Positions 9,141 through 18,737 of a stretch of 64,000 bases of DNA are shown one piece after another. Origin of the DNA: Neophaeotheca triangularis (Eukaryota); the NCBI GenBank assembly GCA_054600435.1, contig BAAIJX010000021.1:310001-374000 (forward strand), given 5' to 3'. Within the stretch, counting starts at the first letter, position 1, and every line of letters begins with the position of its first letter. The notes under the pieces were generated by a model. The model ran no database searches, was not told the DNA's origin, and saw only the letters and a list, made by a program, of their open reading frames with translations. The position numbers were made by a program, and so were the translations under genes.

Positions 9141-11216
9141 CTACTCAATGCTCATCTTCATCAACCCATCATTCGTATCCACCATGCCCTGCATTCCCAA
9201 TTTCTTGCCTCCAGGCACAGTCGAGCCGCTCGCCATGCTGATATTGCTCCCGTTGCTTCCACTCCTGACCGGCTGCAAGTCTGGTGTATTTTGCATACTC
9301 AATCTCATGGCATCACCAGAGAGCGCTTGTCCATCACGCTTCCTCTCAGGCGGTGCGCCCCAACCATTAATCGAGTCGCGCTGGGAAGGACTGTGAGTGA
9401 GAACAGGCGAGTTCTGTGAAGACATGCCTGGTGAAACCGCACGACGCTTGATCGAAGCGATGTCAGAATCGTCCTCGCGCCTACGCTTGAAGTTCTTGAG
9501 ATGAACATCGTCGCTTGTAGCGGCCGGAAAGTTTGGGGCTGCCGCGTTGGTATTGATGCTTTCAGCGTCGCTCGCGTTGGAGGCAGCTCGGAATCGACGG
9601 TTGACTGGAAATGAGCTTCTGTTTTCGCTTGGCAGTGGAGAGTCCATGTTAACGTCCGACATGGCACTGCTGCTGTGACCCGGGAAGGAGGGCGGCGGCG
9701 GGGTGCGCATTGATGATGGATCGAAACGGTTCCAGTAGTTCATACCACCGCTATTGCGCGAAGCTTGAGCAGAGAAGTTTAGCATACCCAGGCCCTTGTT
9801 CGGGTTGTCGAGCGTAGGCTCGTTGTCGAGTTCCTGGTCAAAATTCTCTTGCGCGGATTCCGGTACCGCTGGCAGGAGATTAGGTGAAGATGCCTCGGTA
9901 GCAGTCTGGGGCCTTTCCAGGTCAAACTCAGACACACTGTTATCCCTTTCCCTCACTTGGCGAATGGTTTCCGCTTCGCGCCTCACGTCTGCATCTTGTG
10001 GGGTTGCCTCTTCAGCCAGAGCGGCCCTGATCCTTGCGAAGCCCTTGGTCTTAGGGAGGAGATTTCCTCTTCGGGTGACGACGCGCCTCACTACACCAGG
10101 CGTAGACGGCGCTGTGGCCTCATCACCACTGTCATTGCCGCTCGACAAGTGAAGCCCATCGGTGCCCATGGCTAAGCTTTCTCTTCGGTTTTGTGAAGCT
10201 TTCGACCAACTGAAGGGCCCAGAGTTGGTTGAAGATTCGATACTTCGAAGTGGAGGAGGTGAAGTATTGCGTGGGGAGGCATGTGAACTGTACCCGCTAT
10301 TGCTGGCACTGCTTGAACCTTTCCTGTTGCGCTTCCCGCCCTTGCGCAGCCGCGACCTTCGAATGTTTTTCATCAGGCTTGCAGCTGCAGGAGAAAAATT
10401 GCTTCCCGTTCCCCATCCAGTGTTGCCAGCTGCTATTGGCGAGGCCGTCGTCTGTGTAGTGAAGGGCGTGGCCGCAGTATTGGGGTTTTGTAGCTTATGA
10501 ACTTGGGGCGTAGTGAATACGGCGTCGTCTACGTCATAGCCACCCATGCTAGCATCTTCATCGCTGTCGCTGCTCTCGCTCTCGCTTCCCAGGATATTCA
10601 AACTGCCTACTGAACTGCTCACTGCGCTCTTTTCGTTTGCGAGCGGCGCGCCAGTGTTGCTCGGCCCTAAGTTCGGGGAATCGAGCATCATGCTACTGAT
10701 AGAGCCTTTCCGAGGAGGTATCATCATTCCCTTTTGCGTGAGAGTCGGCGATGAATCTGGGCTTCTTCTTCCCGCCAACGTAGAGTGGTGTAGGTTCGTA
10801 GAAGCTCTTGAGAAGTCCAAACCGCGCGAATGGCGGGGCAGACTGGTCGCCGGAGAATGCTGCTGAGATTCTCTTTGTAACGCGTTCTGTGCCAAAACTT
10901 CGCTTTGAGAGTAGATGTTGTGCTTGTCTAGCTCAGGCGACAAGGGCACTGCTGGTGCTGGCATCGACGAATTGTCTCGGCTCGGCAAATGCAGGGACAG
11001 ACCTCGCGAGAACAGCTCAGGACGTCGCAGAGCCTTCGGTGTTATCGGGAGAGAGTTGTCATCTTTACTCCCCGGGCGACGTTCTTGGAAGGTAGGCGAA
11101 GGGGCCAAGGTGGAGAGAGCGTTGGGAGGGTCAGAGAAGGAGCGGCTCTTTGGAGTTTGCGACGATGTCATTGTATCCTTGGGCGATATGCCGCCTTTCG
11201 GGGAGGCCTGCATCAT
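9141..11216 (-). CDS. Conserved hypothetical Ser/Pro-rich, largely disordered protein (691 aa)
   Basis: Long intronless ORF with conserved-looking islands (RRGNLLPKTKGFARIRAAL, KRRAVSPGMS, DTNDGLMKMSIE). Confidence 0.85.
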   Translation of the reverse strand: MMQASPKGGISPKDTMTSSQTPKSRSFSDPPNALSTLAPSPTFQERRPGSKDDNSLPITPKALRRPELFSRGLSLHLPSRDNSSMPAPAVPLSPELDKHNIYSQSEVLAQNALQRESQQHSPATSLPRHSRGLDFSRASTNLHHSTLAGRRSPDSSPTLTQKGMMIPPRKGSISSMMLDSPNLGPSNTGAPLANEKSAVSSSVGSLNILGSESESSDSDEDASMGGYDVDDAVFTTPQVHKLQNPNTAATPFTTQTTASPIAAGNTGWGTGSNFSPAAASLMKNIRRSRLRKGGKRNRKGSSSASNSGYSSHASPRNTSPPPLRSIESSTNSGPFSWSKASQNRRESLAMGTDGLHLSSGNDSGDEATAPSTPGVVRRVVTRRGNLLPKTKGFARIRAALAEEATPQDADVRREAETIRQVRERDNSVSEFDLERPQTATEASSPNLLPAVPESAQENFDQELDNEPTLDNPNKGLGMLNFSAQASRNSGGMNYWNRFDPSSMRTPPPPSFPGHSSSAMSDVNMDSPLPSENRSSFPVNRRFRAASNASDAESINTNAAAPNFPAATSDDVHLKNFKRRREDDSDIASIKRRAVSPGMSSQNSPVLTHSPSQRDSINGWGAPPERKRDGQALSGDAMRLSMQNTPDLQPVRSGSNGSNISMASGSTVPGGKKLGMQGMVDTNDGLMKMSIE

Positions 11217-14432: not shown

Positions 14433-15756
14433 ATGTTCTCAAGCTCTGTAAGGTCTGCCAACTGTCTCATATGTTCTGATAGCGCTGATATGGAACAATA
14501 GAAACCCTACTCGGCAGTGACGGTGCAAATCGATCGTTTGACCAGCGAAAATTATGAGGAGGACGACTTGAGCGGCATCGTTGACCTGATCGAAGTCATC
14601 CGTATCCAAGGGCCCGGACCAACGGAGGCGGCAAGGGCACTTCGCAAGAAGCTGTAAGTCTTATGATAGCGCTTCTGAAATGACGGAGTCAAGCTTACCA
14701 TTATGGCGTAGTAAGTACGGGAACACGCACCGTCAAGTGCGCGCACTTACCATCCTCAATGGCCTTATTGAAAACGCCGGCACGAGGTTTCAACGTGCCT
14801 TTGCTGATGAACCCCTTCTGGAGCGTCTACGTATGATGGCACGGGACGAAGCTGTGGACCCCAAAGTTCGCCAGAAATGTCAAGTACTCTTCGTCTACTG
14901 GGCGAACCAGTACAGCAAGACTGCCGGCCTCGAACGCATCGCTACTCTGTACAAGGAACTTCCAAAGAGTCAAAGGCCTGCGCAAGCGCGGAACAAAGTA
15001 CTGCAGGACACTGCGAACATGGACTCCGACAACGAAGGCCCATCGAGCCCGGCCAGGTCTCGTGCAAACTCAAGGGCTTCACCGGTACCAAGCTCGTCTC
15101 TCGCTCTCGCAGGCAACCGGCCGGACACATTTACGCACACTTCTTCTTCAATGTCATCCTCAAAGCTCTCTAAATCCAGCAAGAAGAGTAAAACCAGGGT
15201 ATTCAACCTAGAGAAGGAGAAAGACAACATCACCAAATGCCTTGCCAATTCCTCAATGGCCTCTACTAATCTCCTCAACGGACTCCAACTCATCAACCGC
15301 GAAAAGGAGCAAGTCTCGCAAAACCAAGAAATTGTTCGACGCCTCGAAACCTGCAAAGCTCTCCGAAGACAAATCTTGACTTACATCCAACTCGTCGAGT
15401 CAGACGACTGGATCGGCAGTTTAGTCAATGCCAACGACGAGCTCGTCAAAGCGCTGACAGCATATGAGATCATGGACAAGAGCCTCGATGATGACAGCGA
15501 CAGTGACGCCTGGGAGCATCTCGACACCGATGAGCCTGGCTTGGCTACGACGAGACTCGCGCACCAACAGGCCATGTCGCAGATGAAAACAGACGATGCT
15601 CCCCCGCCTAAACCGGCTCGGCCGAACAACATGTCCATGCCACCGCCACTACCAGAGCCTGCTCAGGCGGAAGACGACGATGATCCTTTTGGCGACTCGA
15701 ACGCTGCGCCTACGCCAGGTATGGAGAGGTCGGGGATGACTTGGAAGGAAGTTTAA
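14433..15756 (+). CDS. LSB5: VHS-GAT domain endocytic adaptor (Lsb5-like)
   Basis: MFSSS|KPYSAVTVQIDRL...GPTEAARALRKKL|KYGNTHRQVRALTIL; GAT region WIGSLVNANDELVKAL; DPFGD motif; introns 14448-14500 and 14654-14711. Confidence 0.88.
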
Positions 15757-16405
15757 GATTTATCCTGATGATGTGAACGATGCAATGATCATGCAACCTT
15801 GAATGGAAGGAACCTGAAGGGTCTGAGGACGGGCTTTGGCGACATTGCGGAAGGGTGGGAATTGATGTAGTATTCGATAAATATCTCACTCGGCGTGTTC
15901 CTCCTTGCTAACATGCCACATCGCACGCTCATCTCTTCAAACTTGAGAAATATCCTTAATTTGCACATCGAGTTCCGAGCACGTGACTCTTTTTCATTGA
16001 TGTCCACTCCCTACATGAGGTCCTATCTGCCACCATCCGCCCCCCGCTGTGGCGCTGGGCAAACACTCCGGGCCTGGAAATGCACCAAGACAGTGGCTGA
16101 ATGACGCAAGCTGTGCAAGCCACGAGGCCGAGGACCGCGCAGCCAAGAATAGCACCTCCAGATCAAGATCCCGGCGCAAGTCACGACTTACTTCACGATT
16201 CCTCTTATTAACCGTAATCGCGCATCCTCTACCTTACCCACAGCATCACACAGCCATCAGTGAAGGTCCTAGAAATCGAATTCAGTACGCCGACCCAATT
16301 CTTAACCCGGCAGCCAAAAATCCCTCGAGCCACGCCACTAACACCACCCAAGAACTTCAGCCAGCAGCAACCAAGCCACGCCACAGCACCATCATAGCAT
16401 CAATC

Positions 16406-16561
16406 ATGCCTCCAACTACCACCGGCACAAGCGGCGCAACCTCCTCTTCTTCCAGCGCGAGCTCGCTTTCCAAAGGCCCCATCTCGAAACCCCCGGTCAA
16501 AATGCCTTGTTGGTGTGGGGATGACTGTTCTTGTTGTATCATTCCTTGTACTGTGATGTGA
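16406..16561 (+). CDS. 51-aa Ser/Thr- and Cys-rich peptide with C-terminal CaaX box (CTVM)
   Basis: Good start context (CAATCATGCC) after a CA-rich leader; MPPTTTGTSGATSSSSSASSLSKGPISKPPVKMPCWCGDDCSCCIIPCTVM*; lies in otherwise empty space between LSB5 and RPN7. Confidence 0.65.
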   Translation: MPPTTTGTSGATSSSSSASSLSKGPISKPPVKMPCWCGDDCSCCIIPCTVM

Positions 16562-16668
16562 GCCGGAGACAGATAGGAGGACGGGCTGGGTCGGGGGAAG
16601 TGGTTTTCCGGGGAGGATGGGGGGGTGATGAGATCGGTCGAGGCAATGGGGCATGGTTGAAGGGAGGC

Positions 16669-16715
16669 CATGGGGAAGGGAGGGCATGGGGAAGGGAGGG
16701 CATGGGGAAGGGAGG
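16669..16715 (+). repeat. 16-nt tandem repeat (CATGGGGAAGGGAGGG) x3
   Basis: Read directly; G-tract rich. Confidence 0.9.
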
Positions 16716-17127
16716 ATGGGGATGCTTGCAAGGGTCAAGGGCCACGAATGGGTTTTGATGGATTCCTTAAGATTGGGATGCGTAGAGAATTGCTCATGGA
16801 TACTGGAGGAAGCTCACACGGACATGGCAGATTGCTTTTGGGTATCAGGGATTTAACTGGGCGTTCTGACGGCGTCTCGAGCACTCTGCGATACCTACTT
16901 AGTCATTTAACGCGATATGCCCGCCTTCAGTCAAGGCTCCCCTGTACAGGTTCCTCGCAATGGAATGTTGACTCTGAGATCGAGATTATGTCACTTCTAT
17001 CGCGCGTTACAAGACTTAATCGCTAATTATACAGCGCTGGGCCTGCTATTGTAGCAACGAGCTGCAAGCCGTACTGAACCTTGTAAGAGCAGCCATCCCC
17101 CCTTCCCGCCTCTTGCGAAGTATCGCA

Positions 17128-18737
17128 CTAGCTCCTCTCACTCCCCCTCAAGCGAACCACTTGACCGTACTTTTGCAGCTTGGTGATGAGCTGATCGCCT
17201 TGCTTGATCACATCATTGTACCTAGTTGACTTTGTTAGCATCACGCTCTCTTACTATGCGAGAAAGAGGAATAGACTTACTGCCTGTTCTTGTCATCACT
17301 CCTCAGCGTCTCGACTACTCCTTGCACCCTGTCAATGACGCATGGCAGCCTTTGACTCGCAATGAATGGCGCCAAATCCTTGTCCAGCCAGTCCACGCTG
17401 ACACCAAAACTCTTCGCCATGCTGTCCAAGCTCACAACCTTGTATGATTGCAGCAGCTGAGCGTATGCCCGCAACCGCATCTCCCGAACATACCAGCTCT
17501 TGTGCTCGTAAAGGTAGCGGTCGGTTGAGAGGAAGTTTTGCTCGACCGTAGCAAGCGCCTTAAAGAAGGAGCTGTAGTTGCCAGAGTATAAGGCTTGGAT
17601 CATGCTAGCGAGGGGCTTGAAGTCGACTTGAGGTTCGGCTTGTGCCTGGGCATCAGCGGAAGCCGAACCGGAGGCAAGTGTCGTAAGATTGACGGCGGTA
17701 GGCTTGGGCGTTGTTGTGGCGGGTTTCGCCTTGCCGTCTTCTTCAATGATCATCTCGTCCTGAGCCCCCGCGCCCGCCGATGCCGTACCGCCAAGTGCAG
17801 ATAGTCGGTCCTCTTCATCGCCTGAGCCAAAGATGGCGCGAATCTCTGGCGCATCTACTACCCTCGACTTGAAGTCGCGACGTGGGAGGGCGACGGCACC
17901 AACGAGCGTGGCATAAACGACGAGGCTGGAGTACGGACAGAGCTCGGTTGATGTGAAGGTGGAAAGAGAGTCGAGGAGCAGCGGGGCGGCGGTGCTATGG
18001 CTGCGGATGGTAAGGAGGTGGAGACCGTTGTAAGCCTTTAGCCTGTTGCGCCTGTCCCAATCACCGCCACTTTCCACCAGCTGCTGTGCACGCTCAACGT
18101 TCTTCTTGACTAGCATCTTGTCGTCGAAGAACATGCCTATCCGGATGATGGCCAAAACGATGTCGATCTTGGTGCCGAGTATGCTCGTCTTCTCAAATAG
18201 CTTCTCAAACTCGTCCAACGCCTTATCCTTGTCGCCGACTCTCGCGTAAAACTCAGCCCTCTTACCTTGCGCAGTCTGGATTTCTGTGTCGCCTGCCTTC
18301 TCGATGGCGTCGTCCTCTTCCTTCTGTATGGCCTCCAATTCCTTTTCGTTCTCCGCCTTCAACTCCTCGTATAGCTTCTCATCCCATCCAAAGTCCACGC
18401 TCGTGTCGACGTTACCGCCCAGAACACCAACTATGCTCGGAGCGTTGATGCTGCTCGTTCTTCTCAGCATCTGCATAGGCGATGGCGAAGTTGGATTTGT
18501 GTTTGTCCGGCTGATGGTTGGCGACATGGACCCAGACTCGCCTGGAGCGTTGAGCTTCCCTGTTTGAGGGTGTGCAAGGTAGGCGTAGAAGGGGGCCATC
18601 TTATCTTGTCGTATGGCATCCTGGAGGACTTGGAGGTTGACTTGTTTCGTAGAGGTTTCCGTCGATGGCGAGGCGATGGTGAAGACGGACTGGGCAAGGT
18701 GGAGCTTTGGGAAGGAGAGGTACTGAGGGTCTCCCAT
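17128..18737 (-). CDS. RPN7: 26S proteasome lid subunit Rpn7 (PCI domain)
   Basis: GGDWDRRNRLKAY, LLDSLSTFTS, YVREMRLRAYAQLLQSY, CVIDRVQGVVET; intron 17222-17280; last exon YNDVIKQGDQLITKLQKY. Confidence 0.96.

What the first reader, a model, noticed from the sequence alone, without database searches (positions are those of the whole stretch)
16406..16561. Tiny CaaX-terminated peptide: candidate a-factor-type pheromone or novel lipidated Cys-rich peptide
Seen: 51 aa with an MP-S/T-rich N-terminus, ending CWCGDDCSCCIIPCTVM*. Known: ascomycete a-class pheromone precursors are short, S/T/P-rich, lack signal peptides, end in CaaX (CVVM/CTVM types) and are routinely missed by annotation. Unusual here: five extra cysteines upstream of the CaaX, suggesting palmitoylation, disulfides or metal binding. 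Inference: a divergent pheromone precursor or an undescribed class of prenylated microprotein.
Basis: partly seen in the sequence, partly recalled or inferred. Interest (0 to 1): 0.7.

Follow-up and report, generated by a model that had tools for sequence, protein, structure and literature searches.

The report
Conserved cysteine-rich CaaX fungal microprotein
A real, overlooked 51-residue gene that makes a probably lipid-anchored, cysteine-rich microprotein conserved across filamentous fungi; it is related to a peptide once proposed as a mating pheromone, but looks more like something else.

Summary
The 51-aa ORF (16406-16561, +) is real. It ends in CTVM and has five further cysteines. RNA-run contigs cover it. 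A DNA pattern for the tail found 112 metagenome loci, 87 of them this family. The tail is conserved at the protein level while synonymous sites are saturated, and LSB5 is often the neighbour. The host is a dothideomycete. Homologues occur in Pezizomycetes and Sordariomycetes, and in one amoeba, where the tail follows a ubiquitin-like domain after Gly-Gly. The family is homologous to the Leotiomycete 'putative a-factor' of Wilson 2023, so it is not wholly undescribed. The pheromone label is doubtful. The core is 14 of 15 identical between fungal classes, it carries a Cys cluster absent from known a-factors, and it lacks the Asn cut site. The Botrytis homologue is abundant in a MAT1-1 strain. 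Best reading (0.5): an intracellular, farnesylated and probably S-acylated, membrane-tethered thiol microprotein. An exported signal remains possible (about 0.3). No biochemistry was tested.

The parts
16406..16561 (+). Intronless ORF, 51 aa, Cys-rich CaaX microprotein (P0001); no second copy found in G000
16406..16471 (+). S/T-rich, length-variable leader (residues 1-22); family length 38-63 aa; no confident fold
16472..16507 (+). Lys/Pro-rich linker (K23-P34); K23 nearly invariant
16508..16537 (+). Acidic Cys cluster C35-x-C37-G-D-D-C41-x-C43-C44; C35, C41, C43 and C44 invariant in 53 peptides (C41, C43, C44 were fixed by the search pattern, C35 was not)
16547..16558 (+). CaaX box CTVM, predicted farnesylation site (X = Met)
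   Evidence: X = Met read as farnesylation in PMC3068285 (passage); not tested
16244..17106 (.). Union of contigs from runs X1, X3 and X8 over the gene: C/A-rich 5' leader, ORF, G-rich 3' region; may merge with the RPN7 3' end near 17088
16205..16211 (+). TATA-like element 33-39 nt before the most 5' RNA-run contig (a consensus match only)
16670..16715 (+). Three G-rich copies at 16-nt spacing in the 3' region; shorter by 16 or 32 nt in related strains
14680..15756 (+). LSB5-like VHS+GAT gene (main ORF), the conserved upstream neighbour
17277..18737 (-). RPN7 main ORF, convergent downstream neighbour, with a 59-nt last intron near 17222-17280; not a conserved neighbour

Best explanation
A vegetatively expressed, intracellular, membrane-tethered Cys-rich microprotein of an old Pezizomycotina family, not a mating-type-specific pheromone. 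Shown here: the gene is conserved at the protein level, RNA-run contigs cover it, and the tail (five Cys, acidic residues, Pro, CaaX) is the constrained part while the leader varies. Inferred from the general CaaX pathway: Cys48 is farnesylated, TVM is removed and the new end is methylated, which brings the tail to the cytosolic face of membranes. Inferred more weakly: the cysteines next to the prenyl group (C43, C44, perhaps C41) are S-acylated, which fixes the peptide in the membrane and would hinder export. The remaining Cys/Asp residues would then form a membrane-side thiol site that binds metal, buffers redox, or docks a conserved partner. The S/T-rich leader would be a disordered, possibly phosphorylated or trimmed, tail.
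For: (1) P34-C48 is 14 of 15 identical to Pyronema (Pezizomycetes) and C35-C48 is 12 of 14 identical to an amoebozoan protein. Yeast a-factors keep detectable homology only within a family-level horizon (bioRxiv 2021.09.28.462209, passages). (2) All 53 peptides have 6-8 Cys. Five non-CaaX Cys are kept in most members although their spacing changes between subtypes. None of the 60 a-factors in the S2 file has such a cluster before the CaaX (by eye). (3) Only 2 of 53 have an Asn placed to give a 5-20 aa mature peptide. (4) The B. cinerea homologue has RPKM 180 in MAT1-1 strain B05.10, where ste3 is 0 and MAT1-1-1 is 0.54; it is 46-198 in crossed tissue. The authors themselves doubt a mating role. 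(5) The family is kept in Xylariales, which lack canonical mating-type regions though they keep both receptors (PMC7407469 passage). It is also in Cephalotrichum (Microascales), an order where Huntiella has a different, repeat-type a-factor. (6) An amoeba carries the tail.
Against: No prenylation, acylation, metal binding or location was measured. Pfam (0 metallothionein or CYSTM matches among 53 members) and the PDB (0 matches) give no support for a metal-binding or CYSTM link. The leader resembles Sordariomycete a-factor leaders (MP, S/T-rich, Lys-Pro). The Asn criterion comes from yeasts, and the G. zeae a-factor lacks Asn too. The homologue had RPKM 0 in all 5 M. fructicola samples, which argues against a plain housekeeping role. 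G000 has an intact STE3 and no other a-factor candidate was found near cyanase or EBP2, so the Ste3 ligand is unaccounted for. The expression evidence is from a homologue of another subtype. The amoebal protein is a single record and could be convergence, transfer or contamination.
Confidence: 0.5

Rival explanations
1. An exported lipopeptide made by the a-factor route (farnesylation, leader trimming, ABC export) that acts independently of mating type, as an autocrine, density or hyphal-fusion signal, through Ste3 or another receptor, with the cysteines oxidised to disulfides outside the cell.
For: The a-factor-like layout of variable leader plus conserved CaaX tail. Strong conservation within each subtype would suit a receptor ligand. 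Divergent paralogue pairs occur at the locus in 5 metagenome contigs. Non-mating uses of pheromones are discussed in PMC10569646. The UBL-Gly-Gly fusion hints that the tail works as a released peptide.
Against: Five free cysteines cannot all pair. There is no conserved cleavage site (Asn in 2 of 53, a dibasic pair in 10 of 53). ste3 was unexpressed where the Botrytis homologue was abundant.
Confidence: 0.2
2. It is the missing dothideomycete a-factor: a MAT1-2-specific mating pheromone sensed by Ste3.
For: CaaX end, under 100 aa, S/T-rich leader, no evident signal peptide. It is homologous to the published putative Leotiomycete a-factor. G000 encodes Ste3 and no alpha-box gene was found in it (a search without a positive control). 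No competing candidate lies near cyanase or EBP2.
Against: Near-identity across classes, the Cys cluster, the lack of an Asn site, high expression of the homologue in a MAT1-1 strain, retention in Xylariales and the amoebal homologue.
Confidence: 0.12
3. The working product is a short peptide with a free N-terminal cysteine, released from a removable leader (the S/T leader in fungi, a ubiquitin-like domain in the amoeba; Met-Cys starts in other subtypes), acting as a short-lived redox or oxygen-sensitive switch at membranes.
For: In P0012 the tail begins exactly after Gly-Gly of a ubiquitin-fold domain. Most Leotiomycete members and the second dothideomycete paralogues start Met-Cys.
Against: One amoebal record only. 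The window's protein starts Met-Pro, and the residue before C35 is often Pro, with no conserved protease site. The link to an N-terminal-Cys degradation pathway is recalled knowledge and was not tested.
Confidence: 0.1
4. A chance ORF in a non-coding transcript or in the RPN7 3' region.
For: CaaX-stop motifs are common by chance, the exact protein is absent from the ESM Atlas, and no relative was found with the single sequence.
Against: 87 of 112 pattern loci are the family against 0 of 7 in prokaryote genomes. Synonymous saturation goes with pN 0.07 and random-level flanks, and there is a purine at -3 in 52 of 52.
Confidence: 0.01

Closest known systems
Leotiomycete 'putative a-factor' family, B. 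cinerea BCIN_13g03330 (Wilson et al. 2023, PMC10569646)
   Same: Size (45-64 aa there, 38-63 here), S/T-rich leader, a Ser-Ile/Val-Lys linker, five Cys before Pro-CaaX, mostly CTVM, usually unannotated. A profile of this family finds Sordariomycete proteins that match the S10 sequences by eye. The two profiles align at 97.3% probability, E 2.4e-11.
   Different: Cys spacing is CxC-x3-CxCC here and CxxC-x4-CCC there; there is no Gly-Tyr motif and the start is Met-Pro rather than Met-Cys. The paper reports the family only in Leotiomycetes and does not discuss the extra cysteines. The paper's own sequences were compared by eye, not aligned.
Proven a-factor / MFa-1 / Ppg2 / HPP1 pheromone precursors of yeasts and Sordariomycetes
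   Same: Short, no signal peptide, CaaX end, MP-S/T-Lys-Pro-like leader in Sordariales and Fusarium.
   Different: They have one Cys per mature unit, diverge between orders, depend on mating type, and in Sordariomycetes sit beside cyanase. Here there is a conserved five-Cys cluster beside LSB5.
A. fumigatus PpgB (Krappmann et al. 2025, Curr Biol)
   Same: An a-factor-like pheromone outside Sordariomycetes, by its title and citing passages.
   Different: The text and sequence were not seen, so kinship is untested. My recollection, unverified, is of a much shorter precursor with a nonapeptide product, which would make it unlike this family.
Metallothioneins and CYSTM proteins (resemblance recalled, from no call)
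   Same: Small, Cys-rich and unstructured; a CxCGxxCxC-like motif is recalled from metallothioneins, and a C-terminal Cys string at membranes from CYSTM proteins.
   Different: No Pfam match to either among 53 members at E up to 10. It has only 6-8 Cys, a CaaX end, and no transmembrane-length hydrophobic stretch.

Membership tests
Leotiomycete putative a-factor family (BCIN_13g03330) | Under 100 aa with a terminal CaaX/CpaX, mostly CTVM | tested here: met
Leotiomycete putative a-factor family (BCIN_13g03330) | S/T-rich N-terminus | tested here: met
   (mean 45% S+T in the first half)
Leotiomycete putative a-factor family (BCIN_13g03330) | Sequence homology | tested here: met
   Indirect, through database proteins that match the S10 file by eye: A2 profile finds P0011 at E 8.9e-4 among 5.8 billion; A2 vs A3 probability 97.3; the A3 profile scores P0001 at 18.6 bits, reached by 0 of 6000 shuffles, though the hardest set reached 17.4. 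A3 members were first found with A2, so the test is not fully independent.
Leotiomycete putative a-factor family (BCIN_13g03330) | Gly-Tyr motif near the C-terminus (87 of the paper's sequences, not all) | tested here: not met
   P0001 has Gly-Asp-Asp there; it is a divergent subtype, and one-to-one orthology is unresolved
a-factor mating pheromones | C-terminal CaaX on a precursor under 100 aa | tested here: met
a-factor mating pheromones | Asn processing site giving a 5-20 aa mature peptide (yeast criterion) | tested here: not met
   No Asn in P0001; 2 of 53 family members. Some proven filamentous a-factors also lack it.
a-factor mating pheromones | Single cysteine in the mature unit | tested here: not met
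   Five extra Cys within 13 residues of the CaaX Cys, against 60 listed a-factors read by eye
a-factor mating pheromones | Homology limited to close relatives | tested here: not met
   14 of 15 residues identical between Dothideomycetes and Pezizomycetes
a-factor mating pheromones | MAT1-2-specific expression | tested here: inconclusive
   No mating-type data for this gene; the Botrytis homologue is high in a MAT1-1 strain and the Monilinia one is 0 in both types
a-factor mating pheromones | Next to cyanase/EBP2 (Sordariomycete locus) | tested here: not met
   Cyanase is on contig C1 and EBP2 on C34, the gene on C21; that synteny need not hold in Dothideomycetes
a-factor mating pheromones | Farnesylation, export by Ste6, activation of Ste3, need for mating | not testable with these tools
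   Needs experiments; a complex prediction with Ste3 was not available
Metallothioneins | Match to a metallothionein family profile or solved structure | tested here: not met
Metallothioneins | Metal-thiolate binding and metal induction | not testable with these tools
   Needs experiments
CYSTM proteins | Pro/Gln-rich head plus hydrophobic Cys-rich membrane module (Pfam match) | tested here: not met

The most novel reading that the evidence does not exclude
The 'putative a-factor' of Leotiomycetes is a misnamed branch of an old family of Cys-cluster lipopeptides, present across Pezizomycotina and in at least one amoeba. The active unit is a roughly 14-residue prenylated peptide with an N-terminal Cys, released from interchangeable leaders (an S/T-rich leader, or a ubiquitin-like domain cut after Gly-Gly). 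It would act as a membrane-bound or exported metal/redox ligand or as a mating-type-independent signal, sometimes made as a pair from divergent paralogues.
Probability: 0.2. Interest if true: 0.8.

Novelty: new variant of a known kind. Interest (0 to 1): 0.56.

Why it matters
No a-factor of Dothideomycetes turned up in my searches, and the one proposed for Leotiomycetes has never been tested. This gene shows that the proposed family reaches at least four classes of filamentous ascomycetes, has subtypes and paralogue pairs, and has a ubiquitin-fused form in an amoeba. That makes the question directly testable. Either it is a pheromone of unusual chemistry and conservation, or the published label is wrong and filamentous fungi share an unstudied, multiply lipidated microprotein that annotation routinely misses.

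Tried and rejected
Single-sequence protein search found nothing, and the Atlas gave three Ascomycota clusters at 0.81-0.87, below its lead threshold. Pfam and PDB gave no informative match. A weak M-factor match (E 0.02) on one homologue and a weak chitin-binding-like match (E 0.016) on another were below cut-off and set aside. AlphaFold2 gave mean pLDDT 51.8 and no secondary structure, so no fold search was run. No second copy was found in G000 with a protein of the other subtype or with two tail patterns; an intron inside the last codons would hide one. No small CaaX ORF lay within about 5 kb of cyanase or EBP2. The alpha-box search rang nowhere, controls included, so it shows nothing. Viral contigs held no match. 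No second ubiquitin-fused form was found. The tail tree (58 rows, 31 columns, 9 of 54 inner branches well supported) cannot settle orthology or transfer. Look-ups for the taxa of metagenome loci gave no names. P0026, a repeat protein that looks like a zinc-finger array, was dropped from the 19 profile hits as a false match. Run X2 covers only the 3' region and is not counted as covering the ORF. No TGAAAC pheromone-response element was found upstream. The small-share runs were not used to infer habitat.

Full report
1. Observation. Window 16406-16561 (+) encodes the stated 51-aa peptide: an S/T-rich first half, a Lys/Pro linker, cysteines at 35, 37, 41, 43 and 44, and the CaaX box CTVM. It lies 650 nt downstream of a VHS+GAT (LSB5-like) gene on the same strand and converges on RPN7, beyond which is an mRNA cap methyltransferase. 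The RPN7 protein clusters at 90% identity with a protein of Neophaeotheca triangularis, a dothideomycete. A CaaX followed by a stop is no evidence alone: a loose pattern matches 184 times in G000 against 123 for its control, and simulated windows carry 1.48 small CaaX ORFs each. The cysteine cluster is the unusual part: 0 of 200 simulations produced a small CaaX ORF with six Cys in its last 20 residues.

2. It is a real gene. I laid 4 of the 8 listed runs. Contigs from X3 (16244-16478), X1 (16463-16870, polyA) and X8 (16358-17106, kind unknown) cover the ORF with no splice. X2 covers only the 3' region. The bin 15940-16093 is empty in all four, and X3 holds a spliced RPN7 contig. The one variant listed inside the ORF (16426) is synonymous. 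Contigs show neither strand nor level, and DNA carry-over is not excluded. A degenerate pattern fixing 7 of the last 11 codons plus the stop found 112 loci in metagenomes and 7 in 596 billion bases of prokaryote genomes. Against a profile of the family, 87 of 112 score 30 bits or more and 0 of 7 do; this is partly circular, since the profile was built from these loci, and many loci are the same species. A rule-based count gave 84 family matches of 115 in 113 loci and 53 distinct peptides including this one; 31 matches were set aside, a few of which are partial or single-Cys-variant members. Features the pattern did not fix came along: an MP-S/T leader, and the exact six residues CWCGDD in 31 of 57 distinct DNA tails. 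For the 31 other tails of this subtype, synonymous sites are saturated (pS 0.62 to over 1 by simple counting), mean pN is 0.070, and 7 have no amino-acid change in 17 codons. These figures are biased by the pattern and by choosing the subtype. Flanks of the closest homologue (L074) align at 0.48 and 0.54, against 0.50 for random sequence, and the -3 base is a purine in 52 of 52. An LSB5 homologue lies in 14 of 26 family loci with at least 1.5 kb upstream, 12 of them upstream on the same strand. RPN7 was found beside no other member.

3. Range and structure of the family. The profile found 15 proteins at E up to 1 among 1918 candidates. These include hypothetical proteins of Cercospora, Epicoccum and Myriangium (Dothideomycetes, class recalled), Pyronema (Pezizomycetes), Hypoxylon and Microdochium (Xylariales, for Microdochium and Annulohypoxylon), and, through a cluster, Cephalotrichum (Microascales). 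A scan of 1.84 billion representatives gave 19 hits at E up to 0.001. Many are mis-called longer ORFs, several break off inside the tail as if at an intron, and one is a false match. P34-C48 is 14 of 15 identical to Pyronema. One hit is from the amoeba Planoprotostelium fungivorum: a ubiquitin-fold domain ending Gly-Gly is followed directly by a tail 12 of 14 identical over C35-C48 and ending in a CaaX with Leu. It is a single record. Five metagenome contigs hold a second, different family member next to the first: head-to-head in L002, L049 and L074, two of these with an intron, and in tandem in L020/L021 and L054. None was found in G000. Pfam, the PDB and AlphaFold2 give no family, structure or fold.

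4. What is known. Wilson et al. 2023 (PMC10569646) named BCIN_13g03330 and homologues in at least 111 Leotiomycetes a 'putative a-factor': 45-64 aa, S/T-rich, mostly CTVM. Their S10 file shows the same plan as here, with five Cys before Ile-Pro-CaaX. The Sordariomycete hits of my profile match those sequences by eye over most of their length. A profile of 16 such proteins aligns to the present family at 97.3% probability, E 2.4e-11, and scores P0001 above all 6000 shuffles, though the hardest control set came close (17.4 against 18.6 bits). I therefore take them as one family with subtypes that differ in Cys spacing. A tree of the tails is too weak to fix orthology. The paper does not discuss the cysteines or a wider range, and its authors say several lines of evidence speak against a mating role. 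In their Table S4 the Botrytis gene has RPKM 180 in the MAT1-1 strain, where ste3 is 0, and 46-198 in crossed tissue; the Monilinia gene is 0 in 5 of 5 samples. The Amorphotheca row is labelled MAT1-1 but lists MAT1-2 genes, so I do not use it.

5. Mechanism. Against a mating pheromone: conservation across classes far beyond the horizon reported for yeast a-factors; a Cys cluster absent from the mature parts of 60 listed a-factors (by eye); an Asn cut site in 2 of 53; abundant expression of the homologue in the wrong mating type; retention in Xylariales, which lack canonical mating-type regions but keep the receptors; and the amoebal form. For a pheromone: the leader looks like those of Sordariomycete a-factors; the Asn rule is not universal; G000 has an intact STE3; and no other candidate lies at the cyanase or EBP2 loci. 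I commit to an intracellular, membrane-tethered microprotein (0.5). The inferred steps are farnesylation of C48 (X = Met, as read for HPP1 in PMC3068285), removal of TVM and methylation, then S-acylation of the neighbouring cysteines as in other prenylated proteins (general knowledge, no call). The acidic CxC-G-D-D-C part would serve as a thiol or metal site or a docking surface. None of these steps is shown. Rivals are an exported, mating-type-independent lipopeptide signal (0.2), the true a-factor (0.12), and a leader-released N-terminal-Cys peptide (0.1). The likeness to metallothioneins and CYSTM proteins is recalled and failed the profile tests.

6. Novelty and limits. The family has been seen once, in one class, under a doubtful name. 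New here are the dothideomycete subtype, the spread over four classes, the paralogue pairs, LSB5 synteny and the ubiquitin fusion. My ten literature searches found no other description of it, but they cover only open-licence main texts. Papers seen: PMC10569646 (abstract, sections 9, 21-23, 27, 29, passages, S2 file, S10 file and S4 table whole, passages of the S3 file; its slide figures and the sequences of Table 1 could not be read); PMC3068285 (passages and section 8); bioRxiv 10.1101/2021.09.28.462209 (passages; supplements not seen); PMC13037118, PMC11787670, PMC13712828, PMC7407469 and PMC4227064 (passages). Krappmann et al. 2025 on A. fumigatus PpgB was seen only as a citation, so its relation to this family is open and could change the verdict either way. 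Whether Neurospora or Fusarium carry the gene beside their proven a-factors could not be checked.

7. Verdict. Observation confirmed; pheromone interpretation partly supported as a precedent but disfavoured as function. New variant of a known but uncharacterised kind; interest 0.56.

Noticed in passing
P0012 (Planoprotostelium fungivorum PROFUN_15513): A ubiquitin-fold domain ending Gly-Gly is fused directly to the family's Cys-rich CaaX tail; single record, origin unclear.
   Followed up: partly
L002:1266-1409 (+), L049:2025-2235 (-), L074:391-594 (-), approximate: A second paralogue starting Met-Cys, with a C-I-D-[IV]-P-C-G core, lies head-to-head with the first subtype; it has an intron in L049 and L074 and was not found in the window's gap 15757-16405.
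   Followed up: partly
L054:1090-1380 (-): A tandem second copy has a Lys/Pro/Ala-repeat leader and its CTVM is followed by Arg-Lys before the stop, so the CaaX is not terminal.
   Followed up: no
L034, L044, L048, L104 (pattern match sites): Pro/Gln/Tyr-rich proteins with a hydrophobic stretch, a four-Cys run and a CaaX end; they look like CYSTM proteins with a prenylation box (label recalled).
   Followed up: no
window 16670-16715: G-rich 16-nt tandem repeat in the 3' region, polymorphic in copy number between strains.
   Followed up: partly
window 17222-17280 (-), approximate: A 59-nt last intron of RPN7 is seen spliced in run X3, extending the protein beyond the ORF's stop.
   Followed up: yes
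window 16511-16549: The tail begins Trp-Cys-Gly and ends Pro-Cys, as does the Sclerotiniaceae alpha-factor repeat quoted in PMC10569646; the other subtype lacks this, so it is probably coincidence.
   Followed up: no
L074 whole locus; window 9141-11216: In the closest homologous locus a relative of the window's unannotated 691-aa ORF (60% identical) lies downstream of the peptide gene, so the local gene set is kept but reordered.
   Followed up: no
P0044 (Cephalotrichum DNG_07419), P0008, P0022-P0035: Many database models appear to mis-call this gene, running through its CaaX end or extending it upstream, which may explain why the family is overlooked.
   Followed up: partly
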